In this document: positions 20,119 through 38,027 of the stretch, in pieces
How positions within the stretch are numbered: position 1 is the first letter of the stretch
How the letters are laid out: each line of letters opens with the position of its first letter
Assembly: GCA_051313645.2 (NCBI GenBank)
Contig: JBNRSN020000005.1
Location: 264,988,001-265,052,000, forward strand
Direction: 5' to 3'
From: Centroscyllium fabricii
Lineage: Eukaryota
DNA: 64,000 bases
The notes under the pieces: model-generated
Database searches by the model: none
Told to the model about the DNA's origin: nothing
The model's input: the letters and a program-made list of their open reading frames with translations, nothing else
Position numbers and translations under genes: made by a program

Positions 20119-20906
20119 GGCCCAAAAATTAGCCTTGGAGGCTTCCTGCGAGTGCAAGCCTCCGAGGTCCATTTACCCTGCGCTCCTGCCATTCTCCAAT
20201 TCTGGGATTTGAAATCCCGATTTGGAGTGCTGCCCCAGGCGCCGCACTGAGGCAACTCAGCGACGGAGTTAGTGCGAGAGCCCGCGCGGGACCACGTGGT
20301 CCGCGGGGAGCCAATGAATGGCAGGAATCCTCCATTCATAACTTTAACAGAGATCTGTGTAAGTTATGAAAAGGAAGAGCCTCAAAAACATCACAAACTA
20401 AAATTAAAAAAATTAACCACATTTTTTAACATGTTTATTTTTTGTTTAAAATAGGTAATTTTTGAAAAATGTTTTAAAGATTTTAACTCTCCTAAAAAAT
20501 ACTTACCTCTTTAAAGTTTAAAAAAATTAAAAACCTGTTTTAAAAAAAAAAAACAAAAAAAACAAAAAAAAAAACTTAAATTCTATAAAATAAAGACTTG
20601 CCTGCTAAAAAGGGGTCGTTACGGCTGATATTTTCAGGCGTAAAATCTTCAATACTTACCCCAATTAAAAAAACTCTGCAAAAAATCGGAAGTGCACTGC
20701 GCACCTACCTCCTGGTGTGCAAAAAATCGGAAGTGCACTGCGCACCTCCTGGTGTGCAGGCCAACGCGATTCAGCTCCCGACCCCCCGCTGGTTGTCTTC
20801 GGAATTGCAGGTATCCCAGGGAAATGGCATCTACCTGCAATTCCAGGGCCGCATGCGTGAGTACTCACACGCACTGCGGCCCCGCGGTCATCGGAATTTC
20901 TGCCCC
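20119..20906. mobile_element. Non-autonomous PIF/Harbinger-like element
   Basis: AAT|GGCCCAAAAATT ... AATTTCTGCCCC|AAT, 3-bp TSD; related to 52632-53743. Confidence 0.65.
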
Positions 20907-22323
20907 AATATGGGCGGCACAGTGGTTGACGTATCGTCAATAGTCTTAATAAAACCAAAGACGAGTAGTGACCTTAACTAGAGGCTTTTATTAGCTTACA
21001 ACGGAGCTACGCTCCGATCGAACATCAGGTACAGAATGAATGGGGGCCGGTCAGTCCCCACCTAGAAGGCACTCACCTGAGGGGAGGAGTTAGAGGTGTG
21101 GCTGACCTGACCCCGCGACAGTGTCGCAATACAGGACAGTTGCATCATGCACCCGACCGCTATACATACATGTAATATTGGTAACAATATTAGGGTGGTA
21201 ATAATAGTACATATAAAGGTTACCACATTCACCCCTTCTTTGAAAATCAAGTCCGGCGGGGTGAATGGACAGAGCAGTTCATGATTAGCTTATCCGGCGG
21301 TCGCGTCTGTCTGGAGGACCGCCGGGTCTCTGTCAAATGTTCTGGTTCCTGCAGCATCGGCGGCACTGGAGCCGGTGGTGGTGGCAGCGGCGCTGGTGCT
21401 AGTACGGTAGGTGGTGGCGGTGGGTCCAAGCCCTGCGGTTGCTGCTGTGCCTGCAGCTGGTCATCCGAGTCTTGGTCCTCGGCTGGCAATGGCGGGGGCT
21501 CCGAACCATACGGTAGTGGCGGCCAGCTTCCGGTGGGTTGTGGGTCGTGTATCGGCCAGTGGTCGATATGTAGTGGCTGGAGGTGGCCGAAATATAGTGG
21601 CTGGGCGGGCTGCTGCCCGACCAGGGGCTCTGCTGTGGTGCTCCCGGCAGGCGCTAGGTCCTTGATGGAGACGGTATCCTCGCGCCCGTCCGGGAACTGT
21701 GCGTACTGCGGGTTGGCGTGCAGCAGCTGCACCTTGTCTACCAGGGGGTCGATCTTATGGCCGCGGACGTGCTTCCTAAGCAAGACCGGCCCCGGCATCG
21801 TGAGCCACGGTGGAAGGGCTGTCCCTGAAGTCGACTTCCTGGGGAATGAAAAAATGTAATCGTGAGGTGTGGCGCTGGTGGCCGTACACAACAGAGAGCG
21901 TATCGAGTGCAGCGCATCAGGGAGGACTGCCTGCCAACGGGACACTGGAAGGCCTCTGGACTTCAGGGCCAGGGTGACCGCCTTCCAGATGATCCCGTTC
22001 TCCCTTTCTACCTGGCCGTTCCCCCGGGGGTTGTAACTGGTCGTTCTGCTCGAGGCAACCCCTTTCTGGAGCAGAAACTGACGCAGTTCGTCGCTCATGA
22101 ACGCCGCCCCCCGGTCGCTATGGATGTAGCTGGGGAGACCGAAAATAGCGAACAGCGTGGTGAAGTGTTTGATCACCGTTGCGCTCGTCATATCTGGGCA
22201 GGGGAAGGGGAAGCGGGAGAACTCGTCTACGACCGTGAGGAAGTGCGAGTGGTGGGGAGGGGGCCTTTGAAGTCCACGCTTAGACGTTCAAAGGGGCGGG
22301 TGGCCTTAATGAGATGCGCCGTA

Positions 22324-22550: not shown

Positions 22551-23814
22551 CCGTGTCTGGCCTAAAAAATTGGGGTTTGCACTCTGCGCAAACAGGGCAC
22601 TCTCAGGTCATAGCCTTGATCTCCGTGATGGAGTAGGGGAGGCTACGGGATTTTACGAAGTGGGCAAGTCTGGTGACACCCGGGTGGCAGAGGCGGTCGT
22701 GGAGTTCCTTCAGCCGGTCTAGCTGGGCACTGGCGCATGTTCCCCTGGACAGTGCGTCCGGGGGTTCATTGAGTTTGCCTGGTCGGTAAAGAATGTTGTA
22801 CTCGTAAGTCGAGAGCTCGATCCGCCACCGCAGGATCTTATCATTCTTAATTTTACCCTTTTGTTTATTATTAAACATAAAGGCGACCGACCGTTGGTCG
22901 GTGAGCAGGGTAAAACGCTTACTGGCCAGGTAATGACGCCAGTAGCGCACGGCCTCCACGATGGCCTGGGCCTCCTTTTCCACTGCAGAGTGGCGAATTT
23001 TGGGTCCCTGTAAGGTGCGGGAGAAAAACGCTATGGGCCTGCCTGCCTGATTCAGGGTGGCGGCAAGGGCAAAGTCCGAAGCGTCACTCTCCACCTGGAA
23101 AGCGATGGATTCATCAACGGCGTGCATGGTCGCCTTGATAATGTCTTCCTTGATCCGGGCGAATGCCGTATGGGCTTCTACCGAGAGGGGGTAGGCGGCA
23201 GCCTTAAGGAGCGGTCTGGCCTTATCTGCGAACTGGGGAACCCATTGCGCGTAATAAGAGAAAAATCCCAGACATCTCTTCAGGGCCTTGGGGTTGTGAG
23301 GAAGGGGCAGTTCCTGTAAGGGGCGCATACGCTGTGGGTTGGGGCCGAGGACCCTGTTTTCCACCACGTATCCGAGGATGGCGAGCCGATCTGTACTAAA
23401 GACACACTTGTCTTTGTTGTATGTGAGATCTAGCCGTTTTGCCGTGTGGAGGAATTTGGCCAGATTGGCATCGTGGTCCTGCTGGTCATGGCCACAGATG
23501 GTCACGTTGTCCAGGTAGGGGAAAGTGTCCTGCAACCCGTTCTGGTCAACCATGCGGTCCATCTCCCTCTGGAATACCGACACTCCGTTGGTCACGCCGA
23601 AGGGGACCCGGAGGAAGTGGTAGAGCCGACCGTTCGCCTCGAAGGCGGTGTACGGGCAGTCGGCTTTCCGGATCGGGAGTTGGTGATACGCCGACTTAAG
23701 GTCGATTGTGGAGAACACCTTGTATTGGGCGATCTGGTTAACCATTTCCGAGATGCGGGGGAGGGGGTAGGCATCGAGCCCGGTGTAGCGGTTAATGGTC
23801 TGGCTGTAATCGAG

Positions 23815-26079
23815 AACATAGAACATACAGCACTGTACAGGCCCTTGGGCCTTCAATGTAGTCCCGCGCTTAGTCCGTCTGATTTTTCCTGTCCCCCCTA
23901 CTCTTCCTTCCCCTCCATGTACCTATCTATCATCCTTTTAAAAGCTCCCAGACTGTCCACATCCACTATTTCAGATGGTAGCCTATTCCACTCCCGGCCC
24001 ACTCTGTTTGAAGAACTTGCCCCTGCCATCCCTTCTGAATCTTCCTCCTTGAATCTTGTGTTCGTGCCCTCTTGTTGTCGTTCTTCCCACCCGGGGAAAC
24101 AGTCTCTGCACGTTTACTCTATCGATCCCCTTCATCATTTTAAACATCTCTATTAAGTCCCCCCTCTTCCTTCTCCGTTCCAGGGAGAAGAGTCCCAGCT
24201 CCCTCAACCTCTCCTCGTACGACTTTCCCCCCATTCCCGGCAGCATCCTTGTGAATCTCCTCTGTACCCTCTCCAACGCCTCCACATCCCTCCTGTAGTA
24301 CGGTGCCCAGAACTGCACACAGAACTCCAAGTGTGGTCTCACCAGTGACCTGTACAGCTGTAGCATGACCTCCCGGTTCTTAAACTCCATTCCCCTGTTG
24401 ATGAAGGCCAATACACCATAGACCTTTTTTACTGCCTTATCCACCTGGGTGGCAGCCTTCAATGATCTGTGTACATATACTCCCAGATCCCTTTGCTCCT
24501 CTGCTTCGCTCAGGACCCTGCCGTTGACCCTATATTCCCTATTCCTATTTGCCCTACCGAAGTGTATCACCTCGCATTTCCCCGTGTTGAACTCCATTTG
24601 CCATTCTTCTGCCCAGCTCTGCATCCTATCTATATCCCTCTGAAGCCTTCTACTTCCTTCCTCCTCATCCACTACTCCCCCAATCTTTGTGTCATCTGCA
24701 AATTTGCTGACCCACTCCTCAGTCCCCTCCTCCAAGTCATTGATAAAGATTACAAATAGTAGTGGCCCCAACACCGACCCCTGTGGCGCCCCACTGGTGA
24801 CCAGTCTCCAACCCGAGTATTGGCCCTCTACCACTACCCTCTGCTTTCTCTGAGCCAGCCAGTTCTCAATCCATCTCAATACTTTGTTGTTTACCCCGCA
24901 ACTCCTTACTTTCTTCATGAGTCGACCGTGCGGGACCTTGTCGAACGCCTTGCTGAAGTCCATAGATATGACATCAACCGCCTTTCCCTCGTCCACACAC
25001 TTGGTCACCTCTTCAAAGAATTCTATCAGGTTGGTCAGGCACGATTTGCCCTTAACGAATCCATGCTGACTGCTCCTGATTAATTTGCCCCTTTCTAGAT
25101 GGTCGTAGATCCTGTCCCTCAGGACCCTTTCCATCACCTTTCCGACCACCGAGGTAAGGCTGACTGGTCTGTAGTTCCCTGGCACGTCCCTGCTCCCCTT
25201 TTTAAATATGGGAACCACATTCGCCCCTCTCCAGTCCTCCGGGACTATCCCCGAGGATAGCGAGGAACTAAAGATAGAGGTCAGTGGCTCTGCGATTTCG
25301 TTCCTCGCTTCCCAGAGAATCCTTGGATATATCCCGTCCGGCCCAGGAGATTTGTCTACCTTCAGTTTCTCCAAAATATCTAATACCTCCTCCCTCTGAA
25401 TATTTACTTCCCCCATCCTTTCCCCTTGTATCTTGCACTCCTCCTCTACTTTTAGTTCCCTCTCCCTTGTGAACACGGACGCAAAATATTCATTTAGTGC
25501 TTCCCCAATTTCCTCTGACTCCGTGCACATTTCTTCCTTGCTGTCTTTGATCGGCCCTACTCTTATCCTAGTCATCCTTTTATTTCTTACGTAAGCATAG
25601 AAAGCCTTGGGGTTCTCCTTTATCCTTCCCGCTAATGCCTTCTCATGCCCTCCCTTTGTCTTCCTTAGCCCATTCTTCAGTTCTTTCCTTGCTTCTTTGT
25701 ACTCCTTTCCCGCCCATGCTGTACACTGCTTTCTCATTCTATCATATGCCTCCTTCTTCTCTACTAAATGTTCTACCTCTTTCGTGATCCACGGTTCTCT
25801 CCTCTTTCCCTTGTTTCCCATCCTACTCGGGACATGCTTATCCAGGGCTTTCATAATTTGCTCCCTGAACACTCCATTTTTCTTCCGTTCCCCTCCCAGC
25901 AAGTTCCCGTTCCCAATCGAGGTTAGCTAAATCCTGCCTAACCCTGTCGTAATTTCCCCTCCCCCAGCTGTATACCTTACCCTGCCTCATGCTCCTATCC
26001 TTCTCCATTACTATTGTGAACGTCACCGAGTTGTGGTCACTGTCCCCAAAGTGCTCCCTTACCCCCAGTTCTACCACTT
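23815..26079 (-). mobile_element. 5'-truncated CR1 LINE inserted in the gypsy RT
   Basis: ORF2 RT (PQGSVLGP, KFADDTK) 23983-25902 and endonuclease tail SDHN; CTATGTT-type tail; removal restores gypsy GEKHRMV|LDYSQTIN. Confidence 0.95.
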
Positions 26080-28191
26080 GACCATCCGATGTTTCTCGCC
26101 AGTCTTAACCACTACAACCTGGGCCCTCCAGGGGCTGGTGCTGGCTTCAATTATCCCCTCCTTCAGCATACGCCCGACCTCCGACCTGATAAACGTCCGA
26201 TCCCCTGCACTGTACTGCCGACTCTTAGTAGCAATGGGCTTGCAGTTGGGGTCGAGGTTGGCGAACAGTGAGGGGGGGTCGACTTTCAGGGTGGAGACGC
26301 CGCAGGCCGGGCTCCGCTTTGGGAAGAGATTGTCCCGGCTACTGACGGTGAGGGGGGGCAGGGTCCCGCCGAACTCCATTGTCAAGCTCTTAAGGTGGCA
26401 CTGGAAATCCAGTCCCAGTAAGACTGGGGAGCACAACTGTTTGAGAATGTACAATTTAAAATTACGGTACACGCAGCCCTTAACTGTGAGCGTGACGGAG
26501 CAGTAACCGGTGACGTCCGTGGTGTGGGACTGTGAAGCAAGGGAGACTTGGTAGCGCGTGGGCAGGATCTGCAGTCCGTAGCGCTGCGCTGTATCGGGGT
26601 GAATGAAGCTCTCTGTGCTTCCGGTGTCGAACAGGCAGTTAGTGGCGTGGCCGTTGACTTTAATCCCCATCATGGAATTTGATAGGGTGTGCGGCCTAGT
26701 CTGATCGACTTTCGGGATGGCTGAGGTCGAAGTGTGTGTGTGTGGGAGCCCTCCGCTGGTCGGGGCCGTACACAAGATGGCGGCGCCCGTGGTTCGCACA
26801 TGGCCGGCCTCTGGGGACAAAATGGCGCCGCCGGAGAGTCACATGGCTGGCCGCTGAAGACAAGATGGCGGCGCCCGTGGTTCGCACGCAGCGTGCCGCG
26901 CTGGGCGGGATGCCGGCCTTGGGGGGTCGCGCGTGGCTGAGTTTGGCGTGCCGTGGGTGCAGCCGACCTCTGCCGCATCAGGGTGGGAGACGGGGGCGCT
27001 TGTACTCTACCCCCGGACCGTCGCTGGGTCGCGCTGCAGTTGCAGCTTACCTGAGGCCAAGGGCTGGTGTTGGAGCTTTCGCAGGCCGCGCTGTTGTACC
27101 TGGAGCTGGGCGCCGGGGCTTATCTGCAGGCCTTGGCGTAGTGTCCTTCCTTTGAGCACCTTTCGTAGGTCGCGGTCTTCGCTGGGCATCTCGCCCGTGG
27201 GTGTTGTCCCTGGCCGCAGAAGTAGCATTTCTTCTCCGCCGGCGTCTTCGCAGCTGCCGCTGCCATTGTGGGGGTCTCGACCCGTTGTGGGGCTGCCCAC
27301 GCATTGTCGACGGCCTGTGGGTTTGGGCCGCCGTACGCCTGCAGCTTGCGGCGTGCGCCCTCCACAGCGTTGGCGATGGAGATCGCCTCCTCCAGAGTTA
27401 AAGCGTCCTTTTCCAGCAGCCGCTGGCGTGCCTCTGCGGACCTGAGTCCCGTTACATAGGCGTCCCGGACGAGGAGGTTCGCCTCCTCTTCTGCCGTTCG
27501 TGGTTTGCAGCCACAGACCCGGACAAGGGCTTGGAGCGCTTGCTCGAACTGCTCATTTGACTCACTCGGTAGTTGTGGTCTGGTCGCGAGCACGTGTCTG
27601 GCGTAGACTGAGTGGACCGGGCGCTCGCAGCATTTCCTCAGTTTAGCCACCGCATCGGGGTACGTTGTGGCATCACGGATGAAGGAGAATACCTGGCTGG
27701 AGATCCCAGACCGGAGAACATGTAGCTTGTTCTCCTCAGTTGTAGCCTTGGCGGCGTCCATGTAGGCCTCCAGGAGACCGAACCAGTGTTTGAAGGTGTT
27801 GGCGGCGGCTGTGTCCTGTGGACTAATGTCCAGCTTTTCGGGTTTTACAGCGCCGCTCTCCATTTTAGAATTTTGCTAAGCTAATAAAATTGACGTATCG
27901 TCAATAGTCTTAATAAAACCAAAGACGAGTAGTGACCTTAACTAGAGGCTTTTATTAGCTTACAATGGAGCTGCGCTCCGATCGAACATCAGGTACAGAA
28001 TGAATGGGGGCCGGTCAGTCCCCACCTATAAGGCACTCACCTGAGGGGAGGAGTTACAGGTGTGGCTGACCTGACCCCGCGACAGTGTCGCAATACAGGA
28101 CAGTTGCATCATGCACCCGACCGCTATACATACATATAATATTGGTAACAATATTAGGGTGGTAATAATAGTACATATAACGGTTACCACA

Positions 28192-28682
28192 GTGGTTAGC
28201 ACTGTTGCCTTACAGCACTAGAGACCCAGGTTCAAATCCAGCCTCGGGTACTATCTGTGTGGAGTTTGCACATTCTCCCCGTGTCTGCGTGGGTTTCCTC
28301 CGTGTGCTCCGGTTTCCTCCCACAGTCCAAAGATGTGCAGGTTAGGTTGATTGGCCAGGATAAATTGACCCTTGGTGTTAGGGGGATTGAATATGTGGGG
28401 TTACGGGGATAGAAACATAGAAACTAGGAGCAGGAGTAGGCCATTCGGCCCTTCGAGCCTGCTCCGCCATTCAATGAGATCATGGCTGATCATCCAAACC
28501 CAGCACCCCGCCCCTGCCCTGATAGGGTGGGATATGTGTCGGTGTAGGCTCGATAGGGATCGAGGGATATGGGGAGAGCGTAGGCGGGGGGTGCTGGGTT
28601 TGGATGATCAGCCATGATCTCATTGAATGGCGGAGCAGGCTCGAAGGGCTGAATGGCCTACTCCAATCTTTTATGTTTCTAT
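28192..28682 (+). mobile_element. HE1-like V-SINE whose 5' head (20912-20926) is split off by the gypsy insertion
   Basis: GGGCGGCACAGTGGT|TAGCACTG, B-box GGTTCAAATCC, V-domain GTGGAGTTTGCACATTCTCCCCGTGTCTGCGTGGGTTTCCTCC, CR1-type tail. Confidence 0.85.
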
Positions 28683-32684: not shown

Positions 32685-34786
32685 AGTGATATATTGTTGT
32701 GCCGCAGGCCTTTAGAAACTACACGGAGCCAGAGCTAAGAGAAAACACGTCTTTACTGAACAGAGTTAAACAAGAAAGAGGCAGAACTACTGAGTACAAG
32801 CATATTCAAACCGTCCCGCCGTTGGTGACGTCATCACGTCCGCCGACGTAGTCGCATCACCCGGATGAGCGGGCTGTGCTCCGCGGAGCCCCGTTGGCGG
32901 ATTCGATATCCCAGCGGGTGTGCCGCCACACAGCTCCCCCCAGAATCCGTCCGGGAGTAATAGTGCAAAATGTTTGTGTGCCGTTGGGGCGGTCGGATGA
33001 TGCGGCCGGACTGTGTTGCTAGCTGCTTCTGGTTCTGCGTTGGAGTGTGGGCGGGTTTTGGTGCGGGAGGGCGACCGCGTTGCGGTGGTTGTGCGGGGAC
33101 CGTGGTCTCGCCCGCTCTCTCGTGCCGGCTTGAGCCGGTCTATTGTTACCGTTTCAGTCCTTTTGCCCATTTGTAATTCAAAAGTCTTATCTCCCGCCCG
33201 AAGCACTCTATATGGGCCATCGTAAGGTGGCTGTAAAGTGGCTCTGTGCCCGTCTCGCCGGATGAACACCCATTTGGCATTTTTGATGTCTTCTGGCACC
33301 CAAGCTGCCGGCTCTCCATGCCTGGTAGTGGTTGAAAGGCTCGTGCAGGGTTTGCCCAGTCCTTTAAATACTGGTCTGCTGACCAGGGGGCGTTGGCCTC
33401 AGCCAGAAATTCGCCCGGTACCGTTAAAGCCTGGCCGTAGACGAGCTCTGCTACTGAGGCGTTGAGGTCCTCTTTGACTGCCGAGCGCAGCCCGAGGAGG
33501 ACCCATGGAAGGCGGTCGGTCCATGAAGCGTCTTTCAGCGTGGCCCAAAGTGATGCCTTCATTGAGCGGTGGAACCGTTCGCATAGGCCGTTCGCCTGTG
33601 GATGGTATGCGGTGGTCCTGTGTAGTGTCACCCCAAGGTCGCGGGCGATGGCCGCCCATAGTGTCGACGTAAACTGGGGTCCTCTGTCGGAGGTGATGTC
33701 TGTGGGCACGCCGAATCGGGCGACCCATGTGGCGATGAACGCCCTGGCCAGGTCCGTGGTGTTGGTGGCAGTGAGGGGAACTGCTTCAGGCCAGCGAGTG
33801 TTGCGGTCGACCATGGTCAGTAGGTGCGTGTGGCCGCGAGATGCTGGTAGTGGCCCGACGAGGTCAATATGGACGTGGTCAAAGCGTCTGGCCGGTACCT
33901 TAAAATTTTCCAGCGGTGCCCTGATGTGCTTGTGCACTTTGGAGCGCTGGCAGGCTCTGCAGGAGGTGGCCCAGGCGCGGACGTCTTTGCGCAGGCCGCG
34001 CCATACAAACCGGGCCGATATGAGTTTAGTGGACGCGCGGGCGCCGGGGTGGGACAGGTCGTGGAGGGTCGTAAAGATTCGTTCCCTCCAAGCGAGGGGT
34101 ACGACGGGCCTGGGTTGCGATAACGAAACGTCGCAGCAAACGACGGTGGCAGCGGGGCCGTGCGCGACATTGGCCAAGCGTAGGCCAGGAAGTTTAGTGG
34201 CCGCGTTGAGTAGGTCGGGGTCGGCCAGCTGGTCCGCGGCCAGTTGGGCGTAATCAACTGCCATTTGGGCGGCGTTGATGGTGGGGCGTGAAAGGCAGTC
34301 AGCGACCACGTTGTCGCGGCCGGAAATGTGTTGAATGTCGGTTGTAAATTCCGACACGGCCGTGATTTGGCGCTGCTGCCTGGCCGACCAGGGTTCAGCG
34401 GCCTTAGCCATCGCAAACGTGAGTGGCTTGTGGTCGGTGAAGGCTGTAAAGTGTCGGCCCTCCAGGAGGAAACGAAAATGTCGCACCGCCAGATGGAGAG
34501 CCAGTAGCTCCCTATCAAAGGCGCTGTATTTTACCTCTGGGGGCCGGAGTTGCCGGCTGAAAAAGGCCAGGGGTTGCCACGCGTTGCCGGTCCACTGCTC
34601 AAAAACGGCCCCGACCGCGTAGTCGGAGGCGTCGGTGGTAAGGGCTACTCTGGCGTTGGGCCTAGGGTGGGCTAGGAGGGTGGCGTTTGCCAGGGCGGTT
34701 TTAGTTGCGGTGAAGGCGGTGGCGGCGTCGGCCGTCCACGCGACCGCAGCCTTGTTGGACTGCCCGCGGGTGGCCTGGTATAAGGG

Positions 34787-35112
34787 CCCTGTGACTGCAC
34801 CCTTTTGATGTGTCTTTTTTGCTTTAAAAAAGGAAAGAAAAAATCTCACTGTTTTGCAATTGTGCCCCATTGTTCGCAGACTGAGGTGTTAAGGTATGCT
34901 AATATGCTTGTGTGCTCTAGGGTTGGATGTATGGGATCAAATTTCTCCCCTCCCCCATGTGTGTGATCTTTGACTTCAGTTTCTCTTTGCCTGACGAAGG
35001 GGCAGACGCTCCGAAAGCTTGTGATTTAAAATAAAACGTTGAACTTTAAACCTGGTGTTGTGTGACTTTTTGCATTTGTCCACCCCAGTCCAACACCGGC
35101 ACCTCCGCATTA
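34787..35112 (+). mobile_element. Penelope-type pLTR fragment inserted in gypsy pol
   Basis: 11-bp TSD TGGTATAAGGG (34776-34786, 35113-35123); contains a hammerhead-like core. Confidence 0.8.
34991..35024 (+). ncRNA. Minimal hammerhead ribozyme motif (stem I degenerate)
   Basis: CUGACGA-A-GGGGC-AGAC-GCUCC-GAAA-GCUU-GUGA. Confidence 0.55.
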
Positions 35113-38027
35113 TGGTATAAGGGGGCCATGAGAGCGGCTGCTCCCGGGATGAAGCGGTTATAAAAATTAACCATGCCTAAGAATTCCTGCAGCCCCTTAA
35201 TAGAGTGCGGGTGGGGGAATTCTTGTACCGCCTGTGCCTTAGAGGGCAGGGGTATGGCCCCTGCTTGGGAAATGCGGTGGCCGAGGAAGTCGATGGTCTC
35301 GAGGCCGAATTTGCATTTGATGGGGCTTAGGATAAGGCCGTGTTCGGTGAGGCGCTGGAACAGGGTCCTGAGGTGCAGGAGGTGTTCCTGGGGGGAGGTG
35401 CTGGCCACGAGAATGTCGTCTAAATAGACGAAAATGAACTTCAAGTCCCGTAGGACTGAGTCCATGAGGCGCTGGAAGGCCTGGGCCGCATTTTTAAGGC
35501 CGAAGGGCATCCTCAGAAACTGAGAGTCCGAAGGGGGTAATTACGGCCGTTTTGGGAATGTCCACCGGGTGTACGGGCACCTGGTGGTAGCCACGCACCA
35601 GGTCGATCTTAGAAAAGATCGTGCGCCCTGCCAATCTGGCGGAAAAATCCTGGATGTGGGGTACGGGGTACCTATCCGGGGTGGTGGCGTTGTTGAGGCG
35701 GCGGTAGTCGCCGCAGGGGCGCCAACCTCCGTCGGGCTTGGGGGCTATGTGGAGCGGAGAGGACCAGGGGCTGCTGGAGCGGCGGATTATACCGAGTTGT
35801 TCCATAGTGCGGAACTCGGTGATTGCGATCTCCAGCTTGGCTGGGTCGAGCCTACGGGCGTGTGCATGGACCGGAGGACCTGTGGTCATTATAAAGTGTT
35901 CCACCCCGTGTTTGGCCTTGCGGGCGGTGAACGTGGGGTTGGTAAGGGCAGGGAATTCCGCCAGGAGTGTGCCGTAGGCATCGGGGTCCCTGGAGCGGCA
36001 TTGGGCTGCCGCGTGGGCCAGGAGTGCAGGCCCTGTGGAACATGGGATGGTCGTCATGGTGTTTAAATTCACCAGGCGGCGCCGAGTTACATCGACCAGT
36101 AGGCCGTTGGCGCAGAGGAAGTCTGCCCCGAGGAGGGGAGAGGTGACCTGGGCCGTTACAAACTCCCAGGTATACGTGTGGCTTGCAAGGGTTATAGTAA
36201 GCTTGCGGGTGCCATACGTTTTTATATTGGACCCGTTGGCTGCCGCTAGTGGCGGGCCCCGGGTGCCTCGTTTGGTTTCTGCAGGGGAGGCTGGCACGAT
36301 GCTGTGCTGCGCGCCTGTGTCGCAGAGAAACCTGAGGCCGGTACCGCTGTCTGTGACGAAGAGCAGTGCTCCTGTGTGGCCTACAGACATGGTGGAGGCT
36401 GAGTTGGGTCTGGGTTTAAACGCGCATGGCTGTAAGCAGCGGTGCGCTTTGTGCTCAAACCGCGTGTGATAGTAGCACCAGCCGGTGCTAGAGGGACGCG
36501 GTTGTCTAGGCGGGCGCGGGGCCCTAGGTTCGGGCGTAAAATTGTGCCTGGGGGGTGAATAGTTGCGCGGGCGCGGGGCCCTAGGTTCAGGCGTAAAATT
36601 GTGCCTGGGGGGTGAATAGCTGCGCTCTACCAATGCCGAGTTAGGGACGCACGTGGTGGAGCTGGTGCGCTGCGCTGCCATCAGCCTGTCGGCTTCCTCG
36701 CCGAGTTCATCGTCGCTGCGATGGGCTAGGGCCGCCAAGGCCGGTCTGATGGCGCGGGGCAATTTGAGGAGGAAGACTGTGCGAAATAGGGTGGCAGGAT
36801 TGGGAGTGAGCGCCTGCATCTGACCTAGGAGGTCCGATGGGTCTGCGTCCCCGAGTTCGGGGAGGTCGAGGAGCTGGCAGTCGAGCTCAAACTGGGAAAG
36901 GGTAAACTTCTTAATTAGCGCGGCCTTAAGCGTTTCATACCTGCCTGCAGAGGGCACGCGCTGGATCTTTGACCACATCCTATCGATGGTCGTTTGTGGC
37001 AGGGCTGTGAACACCAAGTCGTAGCGGTCGTCCCCGTTGATGCCATGTGAACGGCAGCTGGCTTCTATGCAGCTAAACCAGGCCGCTGGCCGTTGCTCCC
37101 AGAACTCGGGCAAAACAAGTCCGCGCCTGGTGCTCTGTCCAGCTCCTTGTGATCGTGGAGCTTGGTTCCTTGTGTTGGGCATGTTTTCGTAAAAAAAAAG
37201 TCCTTGGCTGGAGTTCCCCAATCCTGTGGCAGCTTTTTTTCTTTACTGGAATTCGTTCCAGTTATCGAGGTCACCACTGTTGTGCCGCAGGCCTTTAGAA
37301 ACTACACGGAGCCAGAGCTAAGAGAAAACATGTCTTTACTGAACAGAGTTAAACAAGAAAGAGGCAGAACTACTGAGTACAAGCATATTCAAACCGTCCC
37401 GCCGTTGGTGACGTCATCACGTCCGCCGACGTGGTGACGTAGTCGCATCACCCGGATGAGCGGGCTGTGCTCCGCGGAGCCCCGTTGGCGGATTCGATAT
37501 CCCAGCGGGTGTGCCGCCACAATATACATATTAAAATATATATAAATGGCAGAACAAGCCAAAGACGATAGTCTGGGTGACTCAAAGTTCTGCGATTTCC
37601 AGTAAGAAAAATCCTTTTTTTTTTTTTTTTTAAATCATTGTGGGTTTTTCCACAAACAGCAGACTAACATTTGACCCTTTGTGACTGCACCCTTTGATCT
37701 CAGGCTGACTGATATGTTAGAACACCTTTGATTGCTTTGATGTCTCTCTGCTGAGGTGTTATGTGAAACGGTTGGAGAGACCACCTGGTGTTGTGACTTC
37801 TTCCAAATGAAAGATCTGGTTGAAGTTATTGAACAAGTCATAAACCTGCAACAGAATTGTTACCTTCTGTTTTCACTGCATTCTTCATTCTCTATTCAAG
37901 CATAGAGTACTAGCTATTCCCTTCTCATTTTTTTAATTCAGTAAATTTTTAGCAAACCAGTTAGTTGGTTGAGGCTGGTGATCCCTCTGCTGCAAGTCTT
38001 GTTCTTGAATCTGCCCTCTGATTTCAG

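What the first reader, a model, noticed from the sequence alone, without database searches (positions are those of the whole stretch)
27877..27962. Gypsy element with no tRNA PBS: leader is complementary to its own LTR poly(A) signal
Seen: one nt after the 5' LTR on the element strand the sequence is TTTTATTAGCTTA, not TGG. It is the perfect 13-nt complement of TAAGCTAATAAAA located 60 nt upstream inside the LTR, which contains the AATAAA. A 7-bp hairpin (ATTGACG-TAT-CGTCAAT) spans the LTR end inside that loop. The geometry would put a primer 3' end next to the LTR boundary. Known: Tf1/sushi elements self-prime using the extreme 5' end of their mRNA. Inference: here the pairing partner appears to be internal and is the poly(A) signal itself, so one helix could both prime reverse transcription and block premature polyadenylation at the 5' LTR only. 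No chromodomain is evident in the integrase tail, so this may be an independent self-priming lineage.
Basis: partly seen in the sequence, partly recalled or inferred. Interest (0 to 1): 0.72.

Follow-up and report, generated by a model that had tools for sequence, protein, structure and literature searches.

The report
Self-priming Gypsy retrotransposon clade in animals
This dead jumping gene and some two dozen related families carry, where a borrowed tRNA would normally bind, a short sequence that pairs with the element's own end-repeat, so they likely start copying themselves with a piece of their own RNA, apparently having arrived at this trick separately from the known self-priming group.

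Summary
Observation confirmed. A Ty3/Gypsy element (28191-20927, minus strand, dead: a CR1 sits in its RT) has no TGG primer site. One base after the 5' LTR, 13 nt pair perfectly with an LTR segment holding its only AATAAA. Across 24 hand-picked families (23 different leaders), 305 of 312 cells pair with their own LTR (215 when leaders are swapped), always in the same register. A second short helix starts right where the primer end would be (21 of 24). Self-priming is therefore likely (0.85), though untested. The element has no chromodomain, and RT-RNase H trees put it apart from sushi-type elements of the same genome (AU p 0.02-0.04). In sushi controls a TATA box lies 30 nt before the partner; here TATA-like boxes lie 68-95 nt before it, which favours an internal primer, but no start site was mapped. 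A canonical poly(A) hexamer ends the partner in 16 of 24 families, so the dual role is plausible but not general. The 7-bp hairpin is real but family-specific. This scan reported a similar self-priming clade on other DNA before; I found no paper describing it.

The parts
27891..28191 (-). 5' LTR, 301 bp, TG...CA
   Evidence: TSD ACCAC at 28192-28196 and 20922-20926
28025..28030 (-). Weak TATA-like slot (TATAGG); an initiator-like A lies 29 nt on, at 28001. Predicted start site, inferred only
   Evidence: sequence; CTTATAGG in 27 of 29 copies read, 80 nt before the partner's 3' end in 29 of 29; motif names recalled
27950..27962 (-). Partner segment in the LTR, the predicted self-primer, TAAGCTAATAAAA
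27951..27956 (-). AATAAA, the only canonical poly(A) hexamer of this LTR; followed by CA at +17/18 and a GU/U-rich tract
   Evidence: sequence; use as a signal not shown
27935..27949 (-). Second helix GCCT...AGGT, starting at the first base 3' of the partner
   Evidence: stem of at least 4 bp in 21 of 24 families, 6.8 expected
27889..27905 (.). 7-bp hairpin over the LTR end; family-specific, shares base 27889 with the leader helix
27890..27890 (-). One-base spacer after CA, unpaired
   Evidence: unpaired in 24 of 24 families
27877..27889 (-). Primer-binding-site position, TTTTATTAGCTTA, complementary to the partner
   Evidence: identical in 28 of the 30 best own-genome loci (one is the window itself), one change in 1, 1 not read
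27120..27863 (-). gag (ATG at 27863), two zinc-knuckle-like motifs, the second decayed
   Evidence: no Pfam hit; knuckles read by eye
26074..26838 (-). Aspartyl protease and start of RT
   Evidence: PF13975, PF13650
23814..26078 (-). CR1-type LINE inserted inside the RT gene (ends approximate); this copy is dead
   Evidence: CR1 label recalled
22606..23811 (-). RT (DYSQTIN, active site YLDN) and RNase H
   Evidence: PF00078, PF17917, PF17919
21250..22287 (-). Integrase core with a Pro/Gln-rich tail; no chromodomain, no Tf2-type SH3
   Evidence: PF00665 only; tail has 0 families at E 0.1
21228..21240 (-). Polypurine tract
   Evidence: sequence
20927..21227 (-). 3' LTR; carries the partner and AATAAA (20986-20998) but no leader to pair with

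Best explanation
This is a dead copy of a widespread animal Ty3/Gypsy clade, without a chromodomain, whose primer site pairs with a segment of its own LTR and which likely primes reverse transcription with that piece of its own RNA. SHOWN in sequence: a 13-bp core helix (up to 19 bp) between an LTR segment and the sequence one base after the LTR, conserved by compensatory change, with a second short helix abutting the partner's 3' end. INFERRED, by analogy with Tf1: the RNA folds back, the element's RNase H cuts at the junction of the two helices just 3' of the partner's terminal A-run, and RT extends that new 3' end across the spacer and U5 to make minus-strand strong-stop DNA of about 20-70 nt. 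Copying of the primer during plus-strand synthesis would also explain why the primer site tracks changes in the LTR. INFERRED with less certainty (about 0.6): in the shark families transcription starts 20-60 nt upstream of the helix, so the primer is internal, unlike Tf1. INFERRED (about 0.45): where the partner ends in AATAAA or ATTAAA, the helix also masks the poly(A) signal of the 5' LTR while the 3' LTR copy stays free.
For: Helix and its rarity. Family-wide, no TGG. Relatives: at least 12 of 13 paired in 30 of 39 gag starts from metagenome and GTDB contigs and in 37 of 49 other own-genome copies. In 24 family representatives 305 of 312 cells pair, against a mean of 215.5 and a maximum of 244 in 10,000 leader swaps; at least 12 of 13 in 23 of 24 self pairs against 26 of 552 cross pairs; columns 4-13 each show two to four Watson-Crick pair types. 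Compensatory changes between close relatives: L073 vs L075, L142 vs L140, L175/L177 vs L171, L160 vs the window. Sharp 3' edge: spacer paired in 0 of 24, positions 1-13 in 22-24 of 24, positions 14-16 in 14-15, background from 17. Second helix: 21 of 24 against 6.8 expected, maximum 13. Controls in the same genome: tRNA-type TGG sites in the second window element and in Mag-type elements; an 11-nt self-complementary site in sushi-type elements. Separate lineage. Internal primer.
Against: No RNA, cleavage or cDNA data; every mechanistic step is inferred. The 24 representatives were hand-picked, mostly the best-preserved copy of each family, and the anchor was the best-scoring CA near gag, which inflates self scores (the LTR end was confirmed independently by 5'/3' LTR alignment for the window and about ten distant loci). 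9 of 39 distant and 12 of 49 own-genome starts scored below 12 of 13; some have a mutated CA or leader with the helix still visible, and six distant ones were left out of the family set. Related families share history, so swap tests are not probabilities. No TATA-like box at a consistent distance in the 20 families from outside the window's genome, none near the partner in the L160 family, and L086 has one that would fit a Tf1-like start. No specific pairing beyond the helix to show that upstream sequence is transcribed (p 0.13-0.53). No canonical hexamer in the partner in 8 of 24 families; in L042 and L048 the hexamer is only 20-23 nt from the LTR end, leaving no room for a downstream element. 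The trees use four lineages only and flag long branches.
Confidence: 0.85

Rival explanations
1. Plain Tf1 geometry: self-priming as above, but transcription starts at or one base before the 5' end of the helix, so the primer is simply the first 13-19 nt of the RNA.
For: Pairing falls to background beyond position 16, and no specific pairing extends further upstream. Several helices begin at a purine after a pyrimidine, as start sites do (L160, L090, L096; rule recalled). Most families from outside the genome have no TATA box to argue otherwise.
Against: The TATA-like box is 68 nt (window family) and about 92-97 nt (L140 family, 21 of 24 copies) before the partner's 5' end, against 30 nt in sushi controls. 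Position 13 is a T in 22 of 24 families, an unusual first base.
Confidence: 0.35
2. The pairing partner is the copy in the 3' LTR, or in a second RNA molecule: the RNA circularises or dimerises, is cut after the hexamer near its 3' end, and primes from there.
For: Both LTRs carry the partner. If the start site is upstream, the partner lies in R and is present at both ends of the RNA. Sequence covariation cannot tell the two copies apart.
Against: The local fold-back over 21-68 nt is kinetically favoured (inference). Cutting the 3' copy would remove part of the R needed for strand transfer (inference).
Confidence: 0.08
3. The helix only masks the 5' LTR poly(A) signal, or is a packaging or translation structure, and priming uses some other, unseen primer.
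For: A canonical hexamer ends the partner in 16 of 24 families.
Against: A mask would not need to start exactly one base after CA in all 24 families with no pairing of the spacer; the helix persists where the hexamer is absent or lies outside it; no TGG site exists in the leader.
Confidence: 0.05
4. A host tRNA half or other small RNA primes, and the LTR match is a by-product. The partner resembles an anticodon loop (CT-AAT-AA), and plant Bianca elements use a half tRNA-Ile (PMC6317226, passages).
For: Anticodon-loop look of the partner in the window and L040 families (by eye; tRNA sequences recalled).
Against: 23 different leaders each match their own LTR best or equal best in 23 of 24 cases; one conserved host RNA cannot do that. 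No Rfam match in the region. The direct tRNA scan was too thin to count: 12 distinct tRNA calls, nearly all Cys and Lys, best match 5 nt.
Confidence: 0.03

Closest known systems
Tf1, Tf2 (S. pombe), Tj1 (S. japonicus) and the Tf1/sushi/Tcn1 chromoviruses
   Same: No tRNA site; the primer-site position is complementary to the element's own LTR (PMC4600332, PMC5341516, PMC6317226, passages read). Sushi-type elements of this genome show an 11-nt helix one base after CA.
   Different: No chromodomain or Tf2-type SH3; separate RT-RNase H lineage; helix 13-19 bp over a 21-68 nt loop, against 11 bp over 123-221 nt in the sushi controls; the partner overlaps the poly(A) hexamer in most families; the TATA-like box is not 30 nt before the partner. 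The Tf1 11-nt figure and cleavage details are recalled: the primary papers were not held.
Plant Ty1/copia TAR lineage (Houba, Osr-1)
   Same: Self-priming predicted from LTR complementarity, showing that the mechanism is thought to have arisen more than once (PMC6317226, passages).
   Different: Other superfamily and hosts.
Cigr-1 clade of Ty3/Gypsy (Ciona; molluscs)
   Different: Not tested: no Cigr-1 reference sequence was available, and the passages read say nothing on its primer site.
Mag-type Gypsy elements
   Same: Two-knuckle gag (by eye); nearest of the three comparison lineages in the quartet trees.
   Different: Deep branch with a long-branch warning; Mag-type elements of this genome have a TGG tRNA site. 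The Mag label is recalled.
Saci2/lennie clade of flatworms
   Same: Compact chromodomain-less Gypsy elements with variable primer sites (PMC12471100, PMC4558846, passages).
   Different: Reported with tRNA sites and 4-bp TSDs; this element has a 5-bp TSD and no tRNA site.

Membership tests
Ty3/Gypsy LTR retrotransposons | TG...CA LTRs, TSD, polypurine tract | tested here: met
Ty3/Gypsy LTR retrotransposons | Domain order gag-PR-RT-RNase H-IN | tested here: met
   Ty3 RT is the best PDB hit, E 5e-43
tRNA-primed Gypsy elements | TGG-initiated site complementary to a tRNA 3' end | tested here: not met
   controls with TGG
Tf1/sushi self-priming chromoviruses | Primer-site position complementary to own LTR | tested here: met
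Tf1/sushi self-priming chromoviruses | Chromodomain and Tf2-type SH3 after the integrase core | tested here: not met
   none in the window tail; PF00385 and PF24626 found in both sushi controls scanned
Tf1/sushi self-priming chromoviruses | RT-RNase H groups with sushi-type elements | tested here: not met
   sushi joins the CsRN1-like lineage (98/97 and 97/94); AU p 0.0225 and 0.0369; four lineages only, long-branch warning, no Tf1 itself
Tf1/sushi self-priming chromoviruses | Primer is the extreme 5' end of the RNA | tested here: inconclusive
   TATA spacing suggests internal in shark families; no start-site data
Tf1/sushi self-priming chromoviruses | RNase H cleavage releases the primer | not testable with these tools
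   needs biochemistry or cDNA intermediates
Cigr-1 clade | RT phylogeny with Ciona Cigr-1 | not testable with these tools
   no reference sequence; motif searches in two papers' supplements found nothing
Saci2/lennie clade | tRNA site and 4-bp TSD | tested here: not met
   5-bp TSD, no TGG; features
Mag lineage | RT-RNase H inside the Mag lineage | tested here: inconclusive
   separate 100/100 clade, sister to Mag-type rows only in a four-lineage tree

The most novel reading that the evidence does not exclude
A large, animal-wide Gypsy clade invented self-priming independently of Tf1/sushi, using an internal R segment that ends in the poly(A) hexamer: one fold masks the 5' LTR poly(A) signal in the nucleus and then, in the particle, presents a two-helix junction that the element's RNase H cuts to release the primer.
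Probability: 0.35. Interest if true: 0.8.

Novelty: new variant of a known kind. Interest (0 to 1): 0.62.

Why it matters
Self-priming has been shown experimentally only in fission-yeast Tf elements and is treated as a hallmark of the Tf1/sushi chromoviruses (plus a predicted plant copia lineage). A further, very widespread animal lineage with its own geometry would show convergent escape from host tRNA, and so from control by tRNA fragments (inference). It gives dozens of natural sequence variants of one RNA-RNA cleavage substrate, with a sharply defined cut position and a conserved flanking helix, for asking how an RNase H cuts duplex RNA. It may also be a compact answer to how an LTR silences its 5' poly(A) signal. 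Practically, annotation tools that require a tRNA site will miss or misclassify an abundant repeat class.

Tried and rejected
Start-site mapping: no RNA holder listed, so no reads were laid. Poly(A)-site evidence from tailed genomic copies: two pattern searches gave 2 and 4 matches. L220 looked like a tailed transcript but is a whole provirus with a CR1 inserted in its 3' LTR, with the U5 remainder after the CR1; L232/L233 is an A-run before a SINE head; the other three are unrelated DNA. All rejected. Extended pairing upstream of the helix (including CTCCATT with the gag start region, seen) is not family-specific. I first read the partner as an 11-nt primer starting at an initiator-like AG; rejected because position 12 covaries and positions 12-16 pair. 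A splice-junction primer, as noted for BEL elements, is not needed: the partner is contiguous in the LTR. Viral contigs gave no relative. The tRNA scan was uninformative. A three-group tree could not test independence and was replaced by four-lineage trees. Clade naming through supplements failed (one PDF supplement of PMC6238403 could not be read and may bear on the name). Of 12 sushi-type regions fetched, 6 gave LTR pairs; others held nested elements of the focal clade.

Full report
Anatomy. The finding lies at the 5' LTR-leader junction of a Ty3/Gypsy element on the minus strand: 5' LTR 28191-27891, gag from 27863, protease, RT-RNase H, integrase, polypurine tract, 3' LTR 21227-20927, with a 5-bp TSD ACCAC. 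The LTRs differ at 6 of 301 positions. A CR1-type LINE of about 2.3 kb interrupts RT, so this copy is dead. The closest named proteins are from a catshark (78-79%), so the host is probably a cartilaginous fish (inference). The genome search saw 3083 candidates for the LTR-gag junction and scored 40.

Observation. One A after the terminal CA comes TTTTATTAGCTTA (27889-27877), the exact complement of TAAGCTAATAAAA (27962-27950), 60 nt upstream, which holds the LTR's only canonical poly(A) hexamer. The 13-mer occurs three times in the window, all in this element, against 0.10 expected; the region folds with z -4.5. Among the 30 best own-genome loci (one is the window) the leader is identical in 28, differs by one base in 1, and was not read in 1; none read begins TGG. 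The 7-bp hairpin exists but shares its last base with the helix and is absent from the predicted folds.

Relatives. The RT has 1282 relatives at E 0.001 among 3189 candidates; named hits come from corals, an anemone, sharks and a ray, a sea slug, a nematode, flatworms, a spider and a ctenophore. I saw no DNA for those named hits. DNA came from 80 metagenome and 11 GTDB-contig loci of unknown host (none from viral contigs) and from 49 further own-genome copies found with a distant gag. Of the 91 distant loci, 39 gag starts had enough upstream DNA. Anchoring at the best-scoring CA plus one base, at least 12 of 13 positions pair with the element's own upstream sequence in 30 of 39 distant and 37 of 49 own-genome starts. 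Some misses have a mutated CA or leader with the helix still visible; L056, L065, L067, L071b, L080 and L097 were left out of the family set. 5'/3' LTR alignment, independent of the hypothesis, put the LTR end at that CA in about ten distant loci.

Covariation. I picked 24 family representatives by hand, mostly the best-preserved copy. They have 23 different leaders. 305 of 312 cells pair; swapping leaders among families gives a mean of 215.5 and a maximum of 244 in 10,000 trials. 23 of 24 self pairs reach 12 of 13, against 26 of 552 cross pairs. Columns 4-13 each hold two to four Watson-Crick pair types. Close relatives show matched double changes: L073 against L075, L142 against L140, L175/L177 against L171, L160 against the window. 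Selection of representatives and shared ancestry inflate these numbers, but the variety of pair types is not what chance or one host RNA would give. The register is sharp: the spacer pairs in 0 of 24, positions 1-13 in 22-24, positions 14-16 in 14-15, and background follows. The loop is 21-68 nt. The base after the partner starts a second stem of at least 4 bp in 21 of 24 families (6.8 expected, maximum 13 in 500 shuffles); it is mostly conserved in sequence, so it has little covariation of its own.

Controls in the same genome. The second Gypsy of the window has a TGG site, as do Mag-type elements (5 of 6 regions gave LTR pairs, all followed by TTGGC). Sushi-type elements, found by PF24626 and shown to carry a chromodomain (2 of 2 scanned), have a self-complementary site one base after CA: 11 nt in 3 of the 6 with LTR pairs, shorter in decayed copies, loop 123-221 nt, well upstream of their AGTAAA. 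The labels sushi, Mag and CsRN1-like are recalled from motifs and Pfam domains, not from reference sequences.

Is the partner internal? In the sushi controls TATTTA begins exactly 30 nt before the partner in 7 of 9 LTRs printed (mutated in 2), as expected if the partner is the RNA's 5' end. In the window family a weaker TATAGG lies 68 nt before the partner, with an initiator-like A 29 nt on at 28001 (27 of 29 copies). In the L140 family TATAAAT(A/G) lies 104-109 nt before the partner's 3' end in 21 of 24 copies; in the L171 family TATAAA lies at 64 nt in 2 of 8; the L160 family has none nearby; the 20 outside families show no consistent box, and L086 would fit a Tf1-like start. Specific pairing upstream of the helix, which would prove transcription there, was not found. 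So an internal primer is favoured for the shark families, at about 0.6, and unmapped.

Poly(A) role. AATAAA or ATTAAA ends the partner in 16 of 24 families; 8 lack it, and L032, L033 and L113 have a canonical hexamer downstream, outside the helix. In the window family the layout is textbook (hexamer, CA at +17/18, GU/U-rich tract; recalled rule), but in L042 and L048 the hexamer is 20-23 nt from the LTR end. Searches for tailed genomic copies gave no valid case. Masking is plausible for many families, not a defining trait.

Lineage. The integrase tail has no Pfam family at E 0.1, while sushi controls give Chromo and SH3_Tf2-1. RT-RNase H trees give the focal clade full support (17 rows). With four lineages, sushi joins the tRNA-primed CsRN1-like elements (98/97 under LG+G4, 14 rows; 97/94 under a mixture model, 11 rows), and forcing the two self-complementary groups together is rejected at AU p 0.0225 and 0.0369. 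Rows with short RT coverage and near-duplicates were left out; both trees flag long branches and lack Tf1 itself. Two origins, or one origin and two losses, are needed on this topology. RT reads YLDN in this copy and many relatives, YLDD in others.

Mechanism. Shown: the helices, their register and covariation, the absence of a tRNA site. Inferred from Tf1/Tf2 (PMC5341516 and PMC4600332, passages): fold-back, cleavage by the element's own RT/RNase H at the 3' end of the partner, extension across U5. Inferred here: the cut falls at the junction of two abutting helices; plus-strand copying of the primer could regenerate the primer site and so produce the covariation; the primer is internal; the helix masks the 5' hexamer.

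Literature. Passages read: PMC3601003, PMC6317226, PMC4600332, PMC13524379 (supplements searched), PMC6238403 (supplements searched, 27, one PDF unreadable), PMC12471100 (abstract and passages), PMC4558846, PMC6934838, PMC5341516, PMC5006619, PMC11042837 (reference list only). Levin 1995, Lin and Levin 1997 and 1998, and Esnault and Levin 2015 were not held; Butler 2001 was seen only as a citation. These passages place self-priming in Tf1/sushi/Tcn1 chromoviruses, fungal relatives and the plant copia TAR lineage. Nine searches found no paper describing it in a chromodomain-less animal Gypsy clade; subscription journals, GyDB and Repbase were not searchable, so this is not proof of absence. Earlier notes of this scan describe what looks like the same clade in other genomes (62 notes hold the words, 8 shown) and one names a YLDN clade of this genome Cigr-1; these are unchecked AI notes and I could not test the name.

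Verdict. Real, conserved and very likely functional: a new variant of self-priming in a separate, widespread Gypsy clade. The internal-primer and poly(A)-masking parts are the novel, unproven steps. Interest 0.62.

Noticed in passing
window 22606-23811 (-) and related loci: The RT active site reads YLDN rather than YxDD in this copy and many relatives, and YLDD in others.
   Followed up: partly
window 28035-28058 (-): The LTR holds a branch-point-like TAAC, a pyrimidine tract and CAG/GTGAGT, which reads as an acceptor and a perfect splice donor back to back, just upstream of the TATA-like slot (motifs recalled).
   Followed up: no
window 32695-37521 (-): A second Gypsy element (DUF7041 gag, CsRN1-like by recall) with LTRs 99-100% alike and an ordinary TGG primer site; it has many near-identical relatives with long open frames in the genome.
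   Followed up: partly
L151, about 125 nt upstream of gag: A window-family-like LTR end sits fused at the partner segment of an L171-family LTR, as if inserted or recombined at that site.
   Followed up: no
L220 / L228-L229: A CR1 inserted in a 3' LTR 16-18 nt after AATAAA with a run of about 17 A at its 5' junction, mimicking a poly(A) tail.
   Followed up: yes
L113-L120, GTDB genome contigs: Contigs of several bacterial MAGs carry whole animal-type Gypsy elements with LTRs, probably host contamination.
   Followed up: no
L042, L048, L104: The loop between partner and leader is only 21-24 nt, implying a very short strong-stop DNA.
   Followed up: no
window 28192-28400 and 20800-20926: The element is inserted into a SINE, splitting it at ACCAC (SINE label recalled).
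   Followed up: no
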